Shown here piece after piece: positions 7,440 to 21,790 of a stretch of DNA of 64,000 nucleotides; positions within the stretch are counted from its first letter, which is position 1; each line of letters begins with the position of its first letter. This stretch comes from a virus. Lineage: Duplodnaviria; Caudoviricetes. A program made the position numbers and the translations under genes. Under the pieces are notes generated by a model. The model saw only the letters and a program-made list of their open reading frames with translations. It did no database searches and was not told the DNA's origin. The DNA lies in IMG/VR virus record IMGVR_UViG_3300010283_000005, positions 1 to 64,000 of that record, one strand, 5' to 3'.

Positions 7440-7628
7440 ATGTCGTCAATACTAAAAAGAATGATGAATAAGAAACCACAGAATAATTTCACGAACTGCA
7501 AGCTAGGCAATGCCCATCAGCTTGTATATTGCAAGGGATTTGGATACCGATGCAAGATCTGTGGTAAAGTGAAGACTGACTGCACTGGTAGGATGATTAC
7601 TGTCCTTACTAAGGAGCAGTCAGAGTAA
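7440..7628 (+). CDS. small Cys-rich protein
   Basis: GGAGG SD; CKICG and other Cys residues. Confidence 0.5.
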   Translation: MSSILKRMMNKKPQNNFTNCKLGNAHQLVYCKGFGYRCKICGKVKTDCTGRMITVLTKEQSE

Positions 7629-7652
7629 ATCAATAAGAGGAGATGAATTAGT

Positions 7653-7994
7653 ATGATTATTGCAGATAAGATGAATGAATCTAGAAATCTGAATGAAGCT
7701 CTGAAGCCTTCTAAGATAGGCTGGTACGGAAACTCCAATCCGAAGCTGCCAGATGGATCACCTGAATTATCAGGTGAGAATAAGGCAATTAGTGTAAGTG
7801 TAATCGCTGAGGAGGGTCAGTACGGAGTAGTAGCTCTCATGGGAGATGAAGGAGAGGATTTGATTCAGACTGTCAAGAGGGATAAAGTTTCAGCTACTCA
7901 GCTAGCTGAGAAGCTCCTGAAGGAAGTCACTGATCCTATGTATGATGCTAAGAAGGTAGCTAAGAAGTATAAAATGGATTACTTCAAGCAGTAA
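7653..7994 (+). CDS. hypothetical protein with MNES/LNEA leader (candidate internal protein)
   Basis: MIIADKMNESRNLNEA. Confidence 0.55.
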   Translation: MIIADKMNESRNLNEALKPSKIGWYGNSNPKLPDGSPELSGENKAISVSVIAEEGQYGVVALMGDEGEDLIQTVKRDKVSATQLAEKLLKEVTDPMYDAKKVAKKYKMDYFKQ

Positions 7995-8547: not shown

Positions 8548-8820
8548 ATGAAAGAATACAGAGTCACTGCAAGGTACCGCTATGATAAGGATCGCCATGA
8601 AGTCGCTAATACTAGACGCACTGACTATGAGAAAGCAGTAGCTAGGTATAAGAGAGTGATTTATGAGAATAATAAGAGAATGAAAATGCAGAGAAGTGGA
8701 CTTAATGATTATGATGTCTACAAGTCGATGAGAACTTATCATCCTGAATTAGATCTAGTAGATATTCAGCTAGAATCTAGGGAGATCTCAGACTGGGAGA
8801 TCAATCTTACTGATAACTAA
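8548..8820 (+). CDS. hypothetical protein, paralog of 1095-1370
   Basis: shared N- and C-terminal motifs. Confidence 0.6.
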   Translation: MKEYRVTARYRYDKDRHEVANTRRTDYEKAVARYKRVIYENNKRMKMQRSGLNDYDVYKSMRTYHPELDLVDIQLESREISDWEINLTDN

Positions 8821-17826: not shown

Positions 17827-17971
17827 TGCTATCTTGCTGGTGCTAGTATTTATCTTCTTGCTAGGACTGATTGGTGAGAAGGGTATGAGTGGCAAGAAAT
17901 TGTATGCGGTCATGCTGATAGCTACCTTAGCTATCTTAGTATTTGTTGCACTGAAATAATTTCTGCACTCC

Positions 17972-18001
17972 GGAGCAAATCAACCTGAGAAAGCGTTTAT
18001 A
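17972..18001 (+). promoter_or_regulatory. phage promoter upstream of the ncRNA + DUF2828 unit
   Basis: GGAGCAAAT-N13-CGTTTATA followed by a UUCG hairpin. Confidence 0.75.
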
Positions 18002-18026
18002 CTTCTGTAAGGTTGCTTCGGTAACC

Positions 18027-18200
18027 TGGCTTCCTTCAAGTGAATAAATTTCTTAAGCGCATTGGGGAGTACAGTGGCAGTCTGGTTCAAGGTTAATTCC
18101 TACTGCCGACTAGAACTTCGGTTCTGATAATCAAAATGATTGAGATGGGTGCTCAATCAAAACCTTCATGATGGGACTTACCACTCCCCGTAAGTAGCCA
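18027..18200 (+). ncRNA. unassigned structured RNA
   Basis: stems GGGGAGT/ACTCCCC, GGCAGT/ACTGCC, AGAAC-TTCG-GTTCT, TGATTGAG/CTCAATCA; no ORF. Confidence 0.5.
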
Positions 18201-18210
18201 TTCTTGCTAT

Positions 18211-18333
18211 GGAGAAGTAGCTCAGCTGGTAGAGCAACGTATGAGAATGCTTCTAGGTTTAGAAGCTAACTGCAACTACTAAAACAAATGCATTGTAAGC
18301 CGTAGGTCAGAGGTTCGAGTCCTCTCTTCTCCA
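18211..18333 (+). ncRNA. tRNA-like RNA with a 50-nt insert in the anticodon arm (residual UGU loop)
   Basis: acceptor GGAGAAG/CTTCTCC, D-arm GCTC/GAGC, T-arm AGAGG-TTCGAGT-CCTCT; insert = GGTT hairpin + TAACTGCAA. Confidence 0.8.
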
Positions 18334-18339
18334 CTTTAT

Positions 18340-18469
18340 CGGAAGATAGCTCAATAGGGAGAGCATCAGGATTTTAAGTTCATAGTTCCTAGGTTTAGGA
18401 ACTAACAGCAATCGAATTTGAATAAAAATTGGGACCTGAGGGTTATTGGTTCGAGTCCAATTCTTCCGA
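18340..18469 (+). ncRNA. tRNA-Pro(UGG)-like RNA with a 57-nt insert in the anticodon loop
   Basis: acceptor CGGAAGA/TCTTCCG-A (C1-G72, A73), anticodon stem TCAGG/CCTGA, TGG-GA; insert = GGTT hairpin + TAACAGCAA. Confidence 0.8.
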
Positions 18470-18472
18470 CTT

Positions 18473-18528
18473 TAGATGCTCACAGCAACTAAGATCTCGA
18501 CTGTTAATCGAAAAATCAAACGCATCTA
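18473..18528 (+). ncRNA. minimal ACAGCAA RNA presenting an Asn(GUU) anticodon stem-loop
   Basis: TAGATGC/GCATCTA stem, TCACAGCAA, TCGA-CTGTTAA-TCGA. Confidence 0.7.
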
Positions 18529-18552
18529 GTCCAATTGAAAGGAGAAATTACT

Positions 18553-20073
18553 ATGAGTTTTATGAGTGAACTCAAGAATCAACTGGATGACAAGTACAAT
18601 GTCTCAGTCACTGAGAATGGTGCAATCGGATATCGTACTACAACTCATCCGCTACTGGATCTCAACTTTGCAGTAGCATCGTTGCGTTCAGAATCTGAAC
18701 AAAAAATCACTAAGATGTTCCGCTCAGCTTTTGTTGAGAATCCGGAGCTCGCAATCAAGTGGCTATTCTATGCTCGTGATGTAAGAGGTGGTTTAGGAGA
18801 GCGAAGATTATTCCGAGTTATCTTGGAAGATCTGTGCTTTACATATCCTGAGGTAGCTGATAAGATCCTCAGTCTAATCCCTATCTACGGTAGATATGAT
18901 GACCTCGTTCAGCTTGCTACTGGTGAGTGGAGATATCGTGATAAGGTTGTAGATATCCTCAAGACTCAGCTCGAATCTGATCTTGCTCAGATGGAGATTG
19001 GTCGACCTACTTCTCTGCTAGCTAAGTGGATGCCTTCCGTAAATGCAGGTAGAAATGCCCGTGAAGCAGCATTGATGATCGCTGATTCTATGCGACTCAC
19101 TGAGAATCAGTACCGTAGAAAGCTCAGCAAGCTCCGTAAGTACATCGATCTTGTAGAGAGTCACATGTGTGCAGGAGACTGGTCAGGTATCGAGTACTCC
19201 AAGGTACCTTCTAGGGCTGCTTTGATTTACAAGGATGCATTTATGAAGCATGATTCTGATCGATACTCTGAGTATATCGCTCAGGTCGAGGAGGGATCTG
19301 CTAAGATCAATGCTGGTACCTTGTATCCTCATGATATCGTGGCTCGATATAGTCCCTCTGCTCGAGTATCTCGTGCACTTGATTCTACTCTGGAGGCTAT
19401 GTGGAAAGCACTTCCTGAGGTCGATTTATCAGGTAAGCAGATGCTTGTAGTCAGAGATGGTTCAGGCTCAATGTCTTGGCAGAATGCTGGTAAATCCAAT
19501 GTGAACTGCTTGACTGTAGCTACTGCATTGACCATCTACTTTGCAGAACGTACTACTGGTGAGTTCAAGAATAAGTTCATCACGTTCAGTGCTCGTCCTA
19601 AGCTGATCGATTTGCTTGGATGCGATACTCTCCATGATAAGCTCATTAAGACTTATGCTGAAGATGATTGCTCCAATACTGATCTGTACAAAGTATTTAC
19701 CTTAATCCTTGATACAGCAGTCAGTGCTAATATGGATCAATCAGAGATGCCTGAGAATATCCTGATTTTCAGTGATATGGAGTTCGATGGTCATAAATTT
19801 GACTGGGATACTCGTTTATTTGAAGTCATCTCTGATCAGTATGCTCAGCATGGGTATAAGATTCCTAGGCTGATCTTCTGGAATCTGAATAGTCGCACTG
19901 AGACTATTCCTGTGATCAAGAATGAACTTGGACTAGTCCTCACCAGTGGGTACTCAGTTCAGGCTGGCAAAATGATCATGTCAGGTGAACTTGATCCAAT
20001 GAAAGCACTTGAGGATATCCTCAATGCTGATAGATATCAGCCATTATCTGATGCTCTCAATGAGGAGGTGTGA
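18553..20073 (+). CDS. DUF2828-family TROVE/Ro60-like helical domain + vWA protein
   Basis: TENGA, RDVRGGLGER, LAKWMP, INAGTLYP, DGSGSM (MIDAS), SDMEFD, FWNL motifs. Confidence 0.85.
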   Translation: MSFMSELKNQLDDKYNVSVTENGAIGYRTTTHPLLDLNFAVASLRSESEQKITKMFRSAFVENPELAIKWLFYARDVRGGLGERRLFRVILEDLCFTYPEVADKILSLIPIYGRYDDLVQLATGEWRYRDKVVDILKTQLESDLAQMEIGRPTSLLAKWMPSVNAGRNAREAALMIADSMRLTENQYRRKLSKLRKYIDLVESHMCAGDWSGIEYSKVPSRAALIYKDAFMKHDSDRYSEYIAQVEEGSAKINAGTLYPHDIVARYSPSARVSRALDSTLEAMWKALPEVDLSGKQMLVVRDGSGSMSWQNAGKSNVNCLTVATALTIYFAERTTGEFKNKFITFSARPKLIDLLGCDTLHDKLIKTYAEDDCSNTDLYKVFTLILDTAVSANMDQSEMPENILIFSDMEFDGHKFDWDTRLFEVISDQYAQHGYKIPRLIFWNLNSRTETIPVIKNELGLVLTSGYSVQAGKMIMSGELDPMKALEDILNADRYQPLSDALNEEV

Positions 20074-20360: not shown

Positions 20361-20751
20361 GGGGATGTAACGGTATCGATTGGGTTGTGATGCTACGAAT
20401 TCGTCCGAGTGACTACGTAATAGTCAAACTAAAATAAACGCTAAAGTTGTAAACTTTTTCGGAAGTAGAACTGCTGCTTGTGCAGCCTAAGTTCTTCTGA
20501 CGAATTTCAGATGATACTAAGTGCTACAGCCGATGTCTGATCTTATCAAATAAAGTAGTACGGTTTGGTTGGTTATATACATAGAGGAATAACCTGGTGG
20601 ACTAGCAGAAACCTTTCTGCCCCTGATAATCGAAGTGGTTAGAACTTATTGCCATGCTGAAACATTCGATTGAAAATTTGCAGAAAAGTCAACGACGTAA
20701 AGATTTGTAGAGTAGTGATTCAAGACACGGGTTCGACTCCCGTCATCTCCA
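20361..20751 (+). ncRNA. ssrA: tmRNA
   Basis: GGGGATG/CATCTCC-A acceptor with G3:U70; T-arm ACGGG-TTCGACT-CCCGT; ATAAAC then tag frame 20440-20490 AKVVNFFGSRTAACAA*. Confidence 0.93.
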
Positions 20752-20793
20752 TCACTTTTATTAAGTTATCGGAAATAGTCATTAGTCCTATGC

Positions 20794-21473: not shown

Positions 21474-21552
21474 CGGGATGTAGTTCAGTTTGGCTAGAAT
21501 GCGTGATTTGGGATCACGAGGTTCGCAGGTTCAAGTCCTGTCATCCCGACCA
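21474..21552 (+). tRNA. tRNA-Pro(UGG)
   Basis: CGGGATG/CATCCCG-ACCA; CGTGA-TTTGGGA-TCACG. Confidence 0.93.
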
Positions 21553-21567
21553 GAAATCAATCGTCAA

Positions 21568-21597
21568 GGAGTTAATTAAAGTTCCTCGACGTTTATA
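21568..21597 (+). promoter_or_regulatory. phage promoter copy
   Basis: GGAGTTAAT-N13-CGTTTATA. Confidence 0.75.
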
Positions 21598-21626
21598 CTT
21601 CTGTAAGGTTCGAAAGCCTTGCAATT

Positions 21627-21695
21627 TAGGTGCTAACAGCAATTAACAAATAACTTTGAATTCTGATAAACTTCAATCCTTATTTAATGCACCTA
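21627..21695 (+). ncRNA. minimal ACAGCAA RNA presenting an Ile(GAU) anticodon loop
   Basis: TAGGTGC/GCACCTA stem, TAACAGCAA, TTGAATT-CTGATAA-ACTTCAA. Confidence 0.7.
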
Positions 21696-21702
21696 GTAAT
21701 TT

Positions 21703-21788
21703 GAATCAAATAGCTCAATTTGGTAGAGTGCTCGATTCTCCCTTATCCCCGAGTCGAGAGGTAGTAGGTTCGAATCCTACTTGATTCG
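21703..21788 (+). ncRNA. tRNA-like RNA with extended anticodon stem and a C/U-rich 12-nt loop
   Basis: GAATCAA/TTGATTC acceptor, D-arm, GTAGG-TTCGAAT-CCTAC T-arm; CTCGATTC-TCCCTTATCCCC-GAGTCGAG. Confidence 0.7.
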
Positions 21789-21790
21789 CT

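What the first reader, a model, noticed from the sequence alone, without database searches (positions are those of the whole stretch)
18211..18469. Two tandem tRNA bodies with a permuted ACAGCAA module grafted into the anticodon arm
Seen: both RNAs have intact acceptor, D and T arms. Removing 18240-18289 (50 nt) from the first gives a perfect anticodon arm ACGGC-ATTGTAA-GCCGT. Removing 57 nt from the second gives TCAGG-ATTGGGA-CCTGA on a C1-G72/A73 proline-type acceptor. Each insert holds a hairpin closed by the same GGTT loop (GCTTCTA-GGTT-TAGAAGC; AGTTCCTA-GGTT-TAGGAACT). The stem that encloses the free-standing elements is therefore permuted and capped here. The inserts are far too short for group I introns. 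Inference: either unspliced tRNA mimics that use host tRNA processing, or protein-spliced micro-introns yielding functional tRNAs. A normal tRNA-Pro(UGG) exists at 21474, which favours a mimic role.
Basis: seen in the sequence. Interest (0 to 1): 0.85.

Follow-up and report, generated by a model that had tools for sequence, protein, structure and literature searches.

The report
tRNA-shaped partner RNAs of phage Ro60-like protein
Two tRNA-shaped genes in this phage carry, inside the anticodon arm, the short RNA "handle" that accompanies a Ro60-like ring protein gene in hundreds of phages, so they are most likely unspliced tRNA mimics that dock this protein (an inside-out form of bacterial Y RNAs), not tRNAs with introns.

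Summary
Window 18211-18333 and 18340-18469 are complete tRNA bodies. Each carries a 50-57 nt insert: a perfect hairpin with a GGUU loop, then ACUGCAA or ACAGCAA. Excision in silico gives tRNA-Thr(UGU) and tRNA-Pro(UGG).

The insert is a capped, circularly permuted copy of a "handle": a covarying 7-8 bp helix followed by ACAGCAA. The handle stands free at 18472-18529, in the leader of the next gene, and at 21626-21696. That gene (18553-20073, Pfam DUF2828+DUF7788) is predicted to fold like Ro60.

- Handles gave 93 model matches in 32 related loci, all on the gene's strand.
- Of the near-complete phage records found by a handle pattern whose fetched stretch lacked the gene, 16 of 17 encode it elsewhere.
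- The tRNA-with-handle design recurs in at least 13 other phage loci with strong covariation.
- It is the circular permutation of a YrlA-like RNA beside the "Ro-like" gene of mycobacteriophage Faith1.

Splicing is unlikely. Insertion points vary, about half of the relatives cannot be restored to a canonical tRNA, none encodes CCA although neighbouring tRNAs do, and the phage has no RtcB, Rnl2-type ligase or splicing endonuclease.

Binding, processing and function are inferred, not shown. This scan has noted the system before on other DNA. I found no published description of the handle or the chimeras.

The parts
17994..18014 (+). Promoter-like 21-nt phage motif (CGTTTATACTTCTGTAAGGTT) heading the RNA cluster and the DUF2828 gene; probable start of the transcription unit (inferred).
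   Evidence: Six copies in the window, all on the + strand, none expected by chance. A second exact copy at 21590 precedes the free handle at 21626.
18211..18333 (+). tRNA-shaped RNA 1. Acceptor 18211-17/18326-32, A73 at 18333. D arm 18220-35. Anticodon stem split as ACG (18237-39) | GC (18290-91), pairing with GCCGT (18299-303). Loop AUUGUAA (18292-98, anticodon UGU). T arm 18309-25. No CCA encoded.
   Evidence: Model R2 113 bits (in the seed). Homologous chimeras in eight other loci: 97.6% of cells paired, 22 of 28 pairs covary.
18240..18289 (+). Insert 1. Linker UAUGAGAAU, capped handle helix GCUUCUA-GGUU-UAGAAGC (18249-66), UA, ACUGCAA (18269-75), A-rich linker (18276-89).
   Evidence: In alignment A4 the hairpin is paired in 100% of cells and 5 of 7 pairs covary. 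RNAalifold predicts it independently.
18340..18469 (+). tRNA-shaped RNA 2. C1-G72 acceptor 18340-46/18462-68, A73 at 18469. D arm 18349-64. Intact 5-bp anticodon stem UCAGG (18366-70)/CCUGA (18435-39) enclosing 64 nt. The 3' end of that stretch reads AUUGGGA (anticodon UGG, G37). T arm 18445-61. No CCA encoded.
   Evidence: Rfam tRNA 53 bits. R2 68.4 bits, not in the seed..
18383..18411 (+). Capped handle of RNA 2: UAGUUCCUA-GGUU-UAGGAACUA followed directly by ACAGCAA (18405-11).
   Evidence: (insert folds at z = -4.2).
18472..18529 (+). Free-standing handle RNA E1, also the leader of the DUF2828 gene. Helix UUAGAUGC/GCAUCUAG, UC, ACAGCAA. The loop holds an anticodon-arm look-alike UCGA-CUGUUAA-UCGA (Asn GUU).
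   Evidence: Model R1 45.3 bits, E 1e-8. An element at the same position occurs in about 27 of 32 related loci.
18553..20073 (+). Gene for the Ro60-like protein (DUF2828 + DUF7788; helical-repeat ring plus vWA domain with an intact MIDAS motif), the presumed handle-binding partner.
   Evidence: Pfam E 2e-40 and 5e-38. AlphaFold pLDDT 88.9. The 12 best Foldseek PDB hits are all Ro60/TROVE, best E 1e-8, TM up to 0.60. Invariant D302-x-S304-x-S306, T376, D408.
21626..21696 (+). Second free-standing handle RNA E2. Helix UUAGGUGC/GCACCUAG, UA, ACAGCAA. The loop holds a CUGAUAA (Ile GAU-like) hairpin with one mismatch. It lies just upstream of an aberrant tRNA-like gene.
   Evidence: Model R1 46.1 bits, E 8e-9. 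E1 and E2 are the only two significant R1 hits in the 142-kb genome; the next best is 15.7 bits, E 0.88.

Best explanation
The two genes encode stable, unspliced, tRNA-shaped non-coding RNAs. They are the tRNA-topology form of a Y-RNA-like family that partners the phage's Ro60-like DUF2828 protein.

Each RNA has two modules:
1. A handle: a short helix followed by single-stranded ACWGCAA. Here the helix is capped by GGUU and branches from the 5' side of the anticodon stem or loop. It is the presumed docking site for the ring protein.
2. A tRNA body with free acceptor ends and an anticodon-loop look-alike (Thr UGU, Pro UGG) just 3' of the handle.

Proposed mechanism:
- The cluster is transcribed from the phage promoter-like motif at 17994 together with the DUF2828 mRNA.
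- Host RNase P and 3'-end enzymes cut the tRNA-shaped units out.
- The protein binds the handle.
- The tRNA-like part then tethers or presents the particle to a tRNA-recognising factor, as the tRNA-like domain of YrlA is thought to do for bacterial Ro60.
- The likely arena is the phage-host conflict over tRNAs, or RNA quality control.

Shown here: the anatomy, conservation and covariation, the genomic coupling to the protein gene, the Ro60 fold, and the permutation relationship.

Inferred: transcription, processing, protein binding and biological role.
For: 1. Handle family. In 34 free-standing copies, 7 of 8 helix pairs covary: 64 double-change cells against 17+-5 in shuffles, 0 of 500 shuffles as high. 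Model R1 finds 93 copies in 32 DUF2828 loci, all on the gene's strand.

2. Coupling to the protein, tested from the RNA side. A handle pattern found at least 111 phage stretches. Of these, 39 hold a DUF2828 gene inside the small stretch. Of 49 others, 27 hold it elsewhere in the record, including 16 of 17 records that are at least 90% complete.

3. The protein is predicted to fold as full-length Ro60.

4. The chimera is a conserved design. Nine class-A chimeras from eight loci show 97.6% paired cells, 22 of 28 pairs covarying, 0 of 500 shuffles as high. R2 gives 21 hits above 60 bits that are 104-136 nt long, including the window's two, against 58 bits or less for ordinary tRNAs.

5. The same parts occur in the other topology. 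Faith1 has a YrlA-like RNA with an open handle, a closed acceptor and a mini anticodon arm. Rotated, it aligns with RNA 1 at score 78, against 45.5 unrotated and 44.6+-7 shuffled. E. coli phage HY02 has three handle motifs just downstream of the gene, one matched by model R1, and the third looks YrlA-like.

6. No CCA. In phages whose ordinary tRNAs encode CCA (19 of 21), none of 11 chimeras does.

7. Anticodon-arm-like hairpins are enriched in free handles: 12 of 43 against 2.2+-1.3.

8. Published data. In the Felixounavirus Bas63, the Ro60-like gp130 lies upstream of the tRNA genes and counters the Ppl defence. The authors guessed that some of the tRNAs are Y RNAs (PMC11482910).
Against: - There is no expression, end-mapping, binding or aminoacylation data for this phage.
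- Both window RNAs restore perfectly to canonical anticodon arms with matching identity features (C1-G72, A73 and G37 for Pro). That is also what a spliced tRNA would show.
- The phage has no other tRNA-Thr(UGU), so a decoding role for RNA 1 is not redundant.
- In the Bas63 study, gp130 alone, expressed with T7, countered Ppl. The protein can therefore act without phage handle RNAs (PMC11482910).
- That Bas63 gp130 belongs to the DUF2828 family is inferred from another Felixounavirus (HY02). It was not checked on Bas63 itself.
Confidence: 0.6

Rival explanations
1. Protein-spliced micro-introns. The handle marks an intron that a host or phage endonuclease and ligase remove, perhaps guided by the DUF2828 protein. 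The products would be functional tRNA-Thr(UGU) and tRNA-Pro(UGG).
For: Single excisions restore perfect 5-bp stems and 7-nt loops with U33 and R37, and ARAGORN then calls Thr and Pro. About half of the handle-bearing relatives can also be restored. The phage has no other tRNA-Thr.
Against: - Insertion points differ: 26/27, 28/29, 29/30 and within the loop.
- About half of the relatives have no canonical restoration.
- The same internal parts occur in permuted, closed-acceptor RNAs, where splicing makes no sense.
- The handle also stands alone and in an mRNA leader.
- The 142-kb phage has no RtcB, Rnl2-type ligase or tRNA splicing endonuclease; the Rnl1 search had no working control.
- From established knowledge, bacteria are not known to splice tRNAs with proteins.
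- The inserts are far too short for group I introns, and no Rfam intron or ribozyme family matches.
- None encodes CCA.
Confidence: 0.1
2. Working tRNAs that keep the handle. The insert bulges out of a continuously stacked anticodon stem as an extra arm. The bound ring protein shields or regulates the anticodon loop, for instance against host anticodon nucleases, while the tRNA is still charged and used.
For: In class A the split stem can stack (ACG+GC against GCCGU) and leaves an intact loop. U33 and U36 are invariant in the nine aligned chimeras. The acceptor, D and T arms are canonical.
Against: - A 50-nt branch at positions 29/30 would probably clash with the ribosomal A and P sites (inference from known ribosome-tRNA contacts).
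- None encodes CCA although neighbouring tRNAs do.
- Acceptor sequences of the 'Thr' members share no identity pairs.
- Closed-acceptor permuted forms cannot be charged, yet they keep the same design.
Confidence: 0.1
3. Cis-acting elements of one polycistronic transcript. The tRNA bodies are only punctuation for RNase P and RNase Z. The handles are operators through which the DUF2828 protein controls its own mRNA. No separate function in trans exists.
For: A handle sits 24 nt upstream of the start codon here, and in the same place in most relatives. All copies lie on the gene's strand.
Against: - Many handles lie kilobases from the gene, inside tRNA arrays or after their own promoter-like motif (21590/21626).
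- The cargo is elaborately tRNA-like and covaries.
- Anticodon-arm-like hairpins are enriched.
Confidence: 0.1
4. Decaying tRNA pseudogenes disrupted by a small mobile or repeated element.
For: A repeated module occurs four times in the genome. A 3-nt repeat (ATT) flanks insert 2.
Against: - Every arm is intact.
- Compensatory changes keep the arms and the insert hairpin paired in nine chimeras from eight loci.
- Helix sequences differ between copies while staying paired, so this is not copy-paste.
- Strand bias is absolute.
Confidence: 0.02

Closest known systems
YrlA-type Y RNAs with Ro60/Rsr in bacteria and mycobacteriophages (Rfam RF02553; Chen et al. 2014, PMC4201824; Wang et al. 2018, bioRxiv 10.1101/312249)
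   Same: A Ro60-fold ring protein gene lies next to small RNAs that combine a protein-binding helix with a tRNA-like D/T/acceptor domain. The protein contacts are expected on the strand 5' of a helix. The 'GAGC-NCG-UAUG' junction after the D arm resembles the YrlA consensus.
   Different: - The topology is reversed. Here the acceptor ends are free and the binding helix is capped inside the anticodon arm. YrlA has a closed acceptor and its ends lie in the Ro-binding helix.
- The motif is helix + ACWGCAA, not GNCGAAN0-1G.
- A real 7-nt anticodon-like loop is kept.
- The protein matches Pfam DUF2828/DUF7788, not TROVE.
- Rfam YrlA scores only 24 bits here (gathering 69), and that match is an artefact spanning two adjacent tRNA halves.
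Free-standing ACAGCAA-handle RNAs of DUF2828 phages
   Same: The helix sequence class is the same (UUUAGRNNC ... GNNYCUAG). The spacing to ACWGCAA is the same. An A/U-rich linker leads to an anticodon-arm look-alike. The gene neighbourhood and strand are the same.
   Different: In the two window RNAs the helix is circularly permuted and capped by GGUU, and a complete tRNA encloses it. In the free form the handle encloses the cargo.
Class I (type-I) non-coding RNAs of dictyostelid social amoebae (Aspegren 2004; Kjellin 2021, PMC7919456; search pattern in PMC5054030)
   Same: A short covarying stem joins the ends. An unpaired conserved motif ending in ACAGCAA (CCTTACAGCAA) follows directly after the 5' strand. 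The rest is variable. Length is about 60 nt. The free handles E1 and E2 have this design, and the U at motif position 3 is also kept.
   Different: These are eukaryotic, with their own promoter (DUSE). The known binder is an RRM protein. No link to DUF2828 or to tRNA-like cargo has been reported. The resemblance may be homology or chance, and I did not test whether dictyostelids encode DUF2828.
Intron-containing tRNAs (bacterial group I introns; archaeal/eukaryal bulge-helix-bulge introns)
   Same: An insert lies in the anticodon arm, and its removal restores a canonical tRNA.
   Different: The inserts are 50-57 nt and show no group I or ribozyme signature. Positions vary among relatives and include the stem. 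No splicing endonuclease, RtcB or Rnl2-type ligase is encoded. The same module exists outside tRNAs.
Bas63 gp130, a Ro60-like counter-defence protein of an E. coli Felixounavirus (PhageMaP preprint, PMC11482910)
   Same: A Ro60-like protein gene lies directly upstream of a phage tRNA array. Felixounaviruses carry a DUF2828 homologue about 33% identical to the window protein in that position, with handle RNAs behind it.
   Different: The preprint describes no RNA motif and only guesses that some tRNAs are Y RNAs. gp130 alone rescued T7 from Ppl. I did not verify on the Bas63 sequence that gp130 belongs to DUF2828.

Membership tests
Canonical tRNA (Rfam RF00005) | Cloverleaf with acceptor, D and T arms and conserved tertiary nucleotides | tested here: met
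   Both RNAs have 7-bp acceptors, 4-bp D stems with GG in the D loop, and 5-bp T stems with a TTCGAGT loop. These arms covary in relatives.
Canonical tRNA (Rfam RF00005) | Continuous 5-bp anticodon stem closing a 7-nt loop; score above the gathering threshold | tested here: not met
   The stem or loop is interrupted by 50-57 nt. RNA 2 reaches 53 bits only by treating 59 nt as an insertion. RNA 1 gets no RF00005 hit. ARAGORN in default mode finds neither.
YrlA Y RNA (Rfam RF02553) | Match above the gathering score (69 bits) | tested here: not met
   The matches are 24.4 bits at 18281-18392, spanning the 3' half of RNA 1 and the 5' half of RNA 2, and 14.4 bits at 18174-18263. Cross-pairing of those halves is imperfect, whereas pairing within each tRNA is perfect.
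YrlA Y RNA (Rfam RF02553) | 5' and 3' ends in the Ro-binding helix, acceptor closed by a loop, GNCGAAN0-1G motif near the 5' end (PMC4201824) | tested here: not met
   The topology is the reverse: free acceptor, capped helix. The motif is ACWGCAA, and I saw no GNCGAA word when reading the sequence.
YrlA Y RNA (Rfam RF02553) | tRNA-like D/T domain joined to a protein-binding helix, encoded beside a Ro60-type gene | tested here: met
   The RNAs lie 84-342 nt upstream of the Ro60-like gene on the same strand.
Ro60/TROVE proteins (for the neighbouring gene) | Ring of helical repeats plus a C-terminal vWA domain with MIDAS | tested here: met
   The model has pLDDT 88.9. The 12 best Foldseek PDB hits are all Ro60/TROVE over the full length. 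DxSxS, T and D are invariant in 26 homologues.
Ro60/TROVE proteins (for the neighbouring gene) | Significant sequence match to the TROVE family | tested here: not met
   Pfam gives DUF2828 and DUF7788 only. A profile search against PDB finds Ro60 only at E 0.07-0.3.
   Both inserts have it with perfect 7- and 9-bp helices. Helix covariation is seen in free copies and in capped copies.
   R1 matches only 18472-18529 and 21626-21696 in the window. In the two tRNA-shaped RNAs the helix is permuted and capped.
Group I intron in tRNA | Catalytic core of roughly 200 nt or more (P3-P9); Rfam match | tested here: not met
   The inserts are 50 and 57 nt. No intron or ribozyme family matched even at E up to 10.
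Bulge-helix-bulge (protein-spliced) tRNA intron | Splicing endonuclease and ligase available; fixed BHB geometry at the junctions | tested here: not met
   The phage genome has no tRNA_int_endo, RtcB or Rnl2-type ligase; the Rnl1 search had no working control. Junction positions vary among homologues. The predicted folds show no BHB. Host enzymes could not be tested.
Dictyostelid Class I RNAs | Terminal stem plus an adjacent unpaired 11-nt motif ending in ACAGCAA | tested here: inconclusive
   The free handles E1 and E2 fit the published design and pattern (PMC7919456, PMC5054030). The two tRNA-shaped RNAs do not, because their stem is capped. Homology was not tested.

The most novel reading that the evidence does not exclude
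The phage makes a set of 'addressable' ribonucleoprotein decoys or sensors. One Ro60-like ring binds a common handle. Each RNA presents a different anticodon loop right beside the bound protein: here Thr UGU, Pro UGG, Asn GUU and Ile GAU. The tRNA-topology members are matured by the host's own RNase P. The particles would trap, block or report host nucleases that cut tRNA anticodon arms, or clear their products. That would make this a programmable counter-defence built from tRNA mimics.
Probability: 0.25. Interest if true: 0.9.

Novelty: new variant of a known kind. Interest (0 to 1): 0.78.

Why it matters
Ro60 and its Y RNAs are conserved from bacteria to humans, yet what the tRNA-like part of bacterial Y RNAs does is still open.

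This locus shows a large family that appears to be unpublished. A Ro60-fold protein travels with RNAs that carry a different handle. The same RNA has been built in two topologies: tRNA outside with the handle inside, and the reverse.

The protein family occurs in 710 GenBank phage records. These include workhorse phages: Felix O1-like coliphages, Vibrio KVP40, Listeria P100/A511-like phages, Staphylococcus, Campylobacter and Enterococcus phages, and cluster L mycobacteriophages. The question is therefore directly testable at the bench.

One member (Bas63 gp130) already has a counter-defence phenotype.

There is also a practical point. Standard tRNA finders either miss these genes or, with introns allowed, call them as intron-containing tRNAs of the wrong identity. 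Phage tRNA inventories and codon-supply arguments may be distorted as a result.

Tried and rejected
- blastn of 17900-18560 against GenBank phages found no match.
- Rfam at E up to 10 has no family for the handle. The only non-tRNA leads were a 24-bit YrlA match, which is an artefact of two neighbouring tRNA halves, and meaningless nuoG and tmRNA fragments.
- I rejected reading 18281-18392 as one permuted YrlA gene. The anticodon and acceptor strands pair perfectly within each tRNA but poorly across them.
I rejected this. In all relatives the displayed loop lies 3' of the handle, and the acceptor of RNA 2 is Pro-type.
- ACAGCAA as a bare word is not enriched in the window. Only the helix plus word is informative.
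- Searches of the phage genome for RtcB, RNA_ligase (Rnl2 type), tRNA splicing endonuclease and CCA-adding enzyme found none, with working controls. The RNA_lig_T4_1 search also found none, but its controls did not ring, so that result is uninformative.
- My first scan for capped copies found only one other chimera (L010), because it used the narrow protein-anchored loci. The wider pattern-anchored loci showed that the design is common.
- A guessed accession for Bas63 was a different phage. That gp130 belongs to the DUF2828 family therefore rests on another Felixounavirus (HY02).
- Literature searches for DUF2828, and for Ro60 with phage and tRNA, found no description of the handle or the chimeras.
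Full report
**What is there.**
- Window 18211-18333 and 18340-18469 are two head-to-tail tRNA-shaped genes on the + strand. Both have perfect 7-bp acceptors, canonical D and T arms and an A discriminator.
- In the first, the 5' strand of the anticodon stem is split as ACG | GC by 50 nt (18240-18289).
- In the second, an intact stem UCAGG/CCUGA encloses 64 nt.
- Each insert holds a perfect hairpin with a GGUU loop, followed by ACUGCAA (18269) or ACAGCAA (18405) and an A/U-rich linker that runs into an anticodon-like loop.
- ARAGORN misses both genes. Rfam's tRNA model finds only the second, at 53 bits.
- After excision in silico, ARAGORN calls tRNA-Thr(tgt) and tRNA-Pro(tgg). The junction of the second is ambiguous over four registers.

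**The module.**
- The same helix plus ACAGCAA stands free at 18472-18529 and 21626-21696.
- In all four copies the strand next to the 7-mer reads UUUAGRNNC and its partner GNNYCUAG. The tRNA-borne copies are literally the free helix closed at its open end: ...CUAG + G + UUUAG....
- A covariance model of 34 free copies from relatives (R1) hits only these two places in the whole 142-kb phage genome, at 45-46 bits.
- In that alignment 7 of 8 helix pairs show compensatory changes: 64 double-change cells against 17+-5 in shuffles. Cells are 92% paired, against 31-47% when partners are slid.

**The neighbour.**
- The ORF 18553-20073 matches Pfam DUF2828 and DUF7788.
- With 25 homologues it folds confidently (pLDDT 88.9).
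- Its 12 best Foldseek matches in the PDB are all Ro60/TROVE structures over the full length, best E 1e-8, including the Thermus phage phiLo Ro60.
- The vWA MIDAS residues are invariant.
- By sequence alone, Ro60 appears only at E 0.07-0.3.

**Coupling of RNA and protein.**
- Homologues at 31-48% identity occur in 32 IMG/VR loci. About 27 of them have a handle in the leader of the gene.
- R1 finds 93 copies in these loci, all on the gene's strand.
- Starting from the RNA instead, a handle pattern found at least 111 phage stretches. Of these, 39 contain a DUF2828 gene within the short stretch.
- Of 49 others, 27 have the gene elsewhere in the record, including 16 of 17 records that are at least 90% complete.
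- tblastn finds the protein in 710 GenBank phage records: Felixounavirus, KVP40-like Vibrio phages, Listeria P100-like phages, Staphylococcus, Campylobacter and Enterococcus phages, and mycobacteriophages. There it is annotated 'Ro-like RNA binding protein', 'RNA-binding protein' or DUF2828.

**The chimeras are a conserved design.**
- Scanning the pattern-anchored loci for capped handles flanked by tRNA halves gave about two dozen further cases in 13 loci.
- Class A, like RNA 1, has the body UAGCUCAG..GGUAGAGC-(A/G)CG-UA.., a capped handle, and then a mini anticodon arm. The stem is split at 28/29 or 29/30. The displayed loops are GUU, UGU, GGU, UUU and UUG.
- Nine such RNAs from eight loci align. 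On the cloverleaf-plus-hairpin structure, 97.6% of cells pair and 22 of 28 pairs covary, with 0 of 500 shuffles as high. RNAalifold recovers the acceptor, D, T and handle helices by itself.
- Class B, like RNA 2, keeps an intact 5-bp stem around the insert. Five different stem sequences all pair perfectly.
- Model R2 scores RNA 2 at 68.4 bits although it was not in the seed. It gives 21 hits above 60 bits that are 104-136 nt long, including the window's two. Ordinary tRNAs score 58 bits or less.

**Relation to Y RNAs.**
- In mycobacteriophage Faith1, three handles follow the 'Ro-like RNA binding protein' gene.
- The middle one runs in this order: handle 5' strand, ACAGCAA, linker, CCA-CUGUUAA-UGG, variable loop, T arm, acceptor closed by a loop, D arm, GCG-UAUG, A-rich linker, handle 3' strand. 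That is the YrlA layout.
- Rotated to start at the acceptor, it aligns colinearly with RNA 1: 79 identical columns, score 78 against 45.5 unrotated and 44.6+-7 shuffled.
- E. coli phage HY02 has three handle motifs right after the gene. Model R1 matches the second of them. The third again looks YrlA-like by eye.
- The window RNAs are thus the tRNA-topology isoform of a YrlA-like family.
- They are not members of Rfam YrlA. The score is 24 bits against 69, the topology is reversed and the motif differs (PMC4201824). Rfam YrlA also fails on the Faith1 RNA at E 0.01 or better.

**Spliced or not.**
Arguments against splicing:
- Insertion points vary.
- Under strict criteria only about half of the handle-bearing relatives can be restored to a canonical arm.
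- The permuted forms cannot be tRNAs at all.
- The handle also occurs alone and in an mRNA leader.
- In phages whose ordinary tRNAs encode CCA (19 of 21), none of 11 chimeras does.
- The complete phage genome lacks RtcB, Rnl2-type ligase, splicing endonuclease and CCA-adding enzyme, with working controls. An Rnl1 search was uninformative.
- The inserts are too short for group I introns, and no ribozyme family matches.

Arguments for splicing:
- Both window RNAs restore perfectly.
- There is no other tRNA-Thr in the phage.

I put splicing at about 0.1.

**How it probably works (inference).**
- A 21-nt phage motif with six + strand copies lies at 17994 and again at 21590, before the second free handle. 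The cluster and the DUF2828 mRNA are probably one transcription unit.
- The tRNA shape would let host RNase P and 3' enzymes release the RNAs.
- The ring protein would dock on the handle, next to the displayed anticodon loop.
- The tRNA-like body would engage a tRNA-recognising factor.
- Anticodon-arm-like hairpins are enriched in free handles as well: 12 of 43 against 2.2+-1.3 in shuffles.
- In the Felixounavirus Bas63, the Ro60-like gp130, upstream of the tRNA genes, counters the Ppl defence. The authors guessed that some tRNAs are Y RNAs. However, gp130 alone also rescued T7 (PMC11482910).
- A role in the conflict over tRNAs is plausible but untested.

**Other resemblance.** The free handle has the design and the 7-mer of dictyostelid Class I RNAs (pattern GTTGRCCTTACAGCAA ... 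GTCAACTG in PMC5054030; PMC7919456). I did not test homology.

**Prior notes.** This scan has already noted the DUF2828/ACAGCAA system, and handles grafted into tRNAs, on other DNA in at least 159 genomes. My conclusions rest on the tests above, not on those notes. I found no published description of the handle or of the chimeric tRNAs.

Noticed in passing
window 17994-18014, 21590-21610, 9623, 15927, 8032, 33638: A 21-nt motif (CGTTTATACTTCTGTAAGGTT) occurs six times, always on the + strand, with none expected by chance. It looks like a phage-specific promoter. Two copies head the RNA clusters.
   Followed up: partly
window 18064-18190: A roughly 127-nt stretch closed by GGGGAGU/ACUCCCC lies between the promoter-like motif and RNA 1. 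It has no ACAGCAA. Its fold is only weakly better than shuffles (z = -1.8).
   Followed up: no
window 20361-20754: The phage encodes a full-length tmRNA (Rfam 88.5 bits) with tag AKVVNFFGSRTAACAA, just downstream of the DUF2828 gene.
   Followed up: no
window 21703-21789: A tRNA-like gene with normal acceptor, D and T arms but an aberrant long anticodon arm (ARAGORN 'tRNA-???'). It follows the second free handle directly and encodes no CCA.
   Followed up: no
L007 6850-6982; L009 6821-6953; L011 6781-6913; L012 6792-6924: 133-nt tRNA-like genes (Rfam tRNA 39-42 bits) carry a different insert of about 50 nt without the ACAGCAA word. This may be a second kind of grafted arm.
   Followed up: no
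L118 1455-1578: A handle-bearing tRNA-shaped RNA has a self-contained anticodon arm that reads UCAGA-CUCUAAA-UCUGA (anticodon CUA, amber-suppressor-like). A second UCAGA copy lies next to the D arm.
   Followed up: no
L071 4840-4957, L074 4088-4208 (-), L093 7805-7921, L080 1139-1242 and others: Long (104-137 nt) tRNA-shaped matches to model R2 lack a recognisable ACWGCAA word. They may carry divergent handles or other inserts.
   Followed up: no
L148 (Escherichia phage HY02) 7722, 8194, 8280: Three handle motifs behind the 'RNA-binding protein' gene carry no RNA annotation. A short annotated hypothetical CDS (7619-7834, opposite strand) overlaps the 7722 motif and tRNA genes that ARAGORN calls there, and another (8561-8740) overlaps tRNA genes. 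These CDS calls are probably spurious.
   Followed up: partly
L149 (Mycobacterium phage Faith1) 3960-4240: Three handle RNAs follow the Ro-like gene. The middle, YrlA-like one is not detected by Rfam's YrlA model at E 0.01 or better.
   Followed up: partly
alignment A4 (class A chimeras): At least eight of the nine displayed loops have U36-A37-A38 (anticodons GUU, UGU, GGU, UUU), the loop class of ANN-decoding tRNAs, which normally carry t6A37. The window's free handles show Asn- and Ile-type loops of the same class.
   Followed up: no
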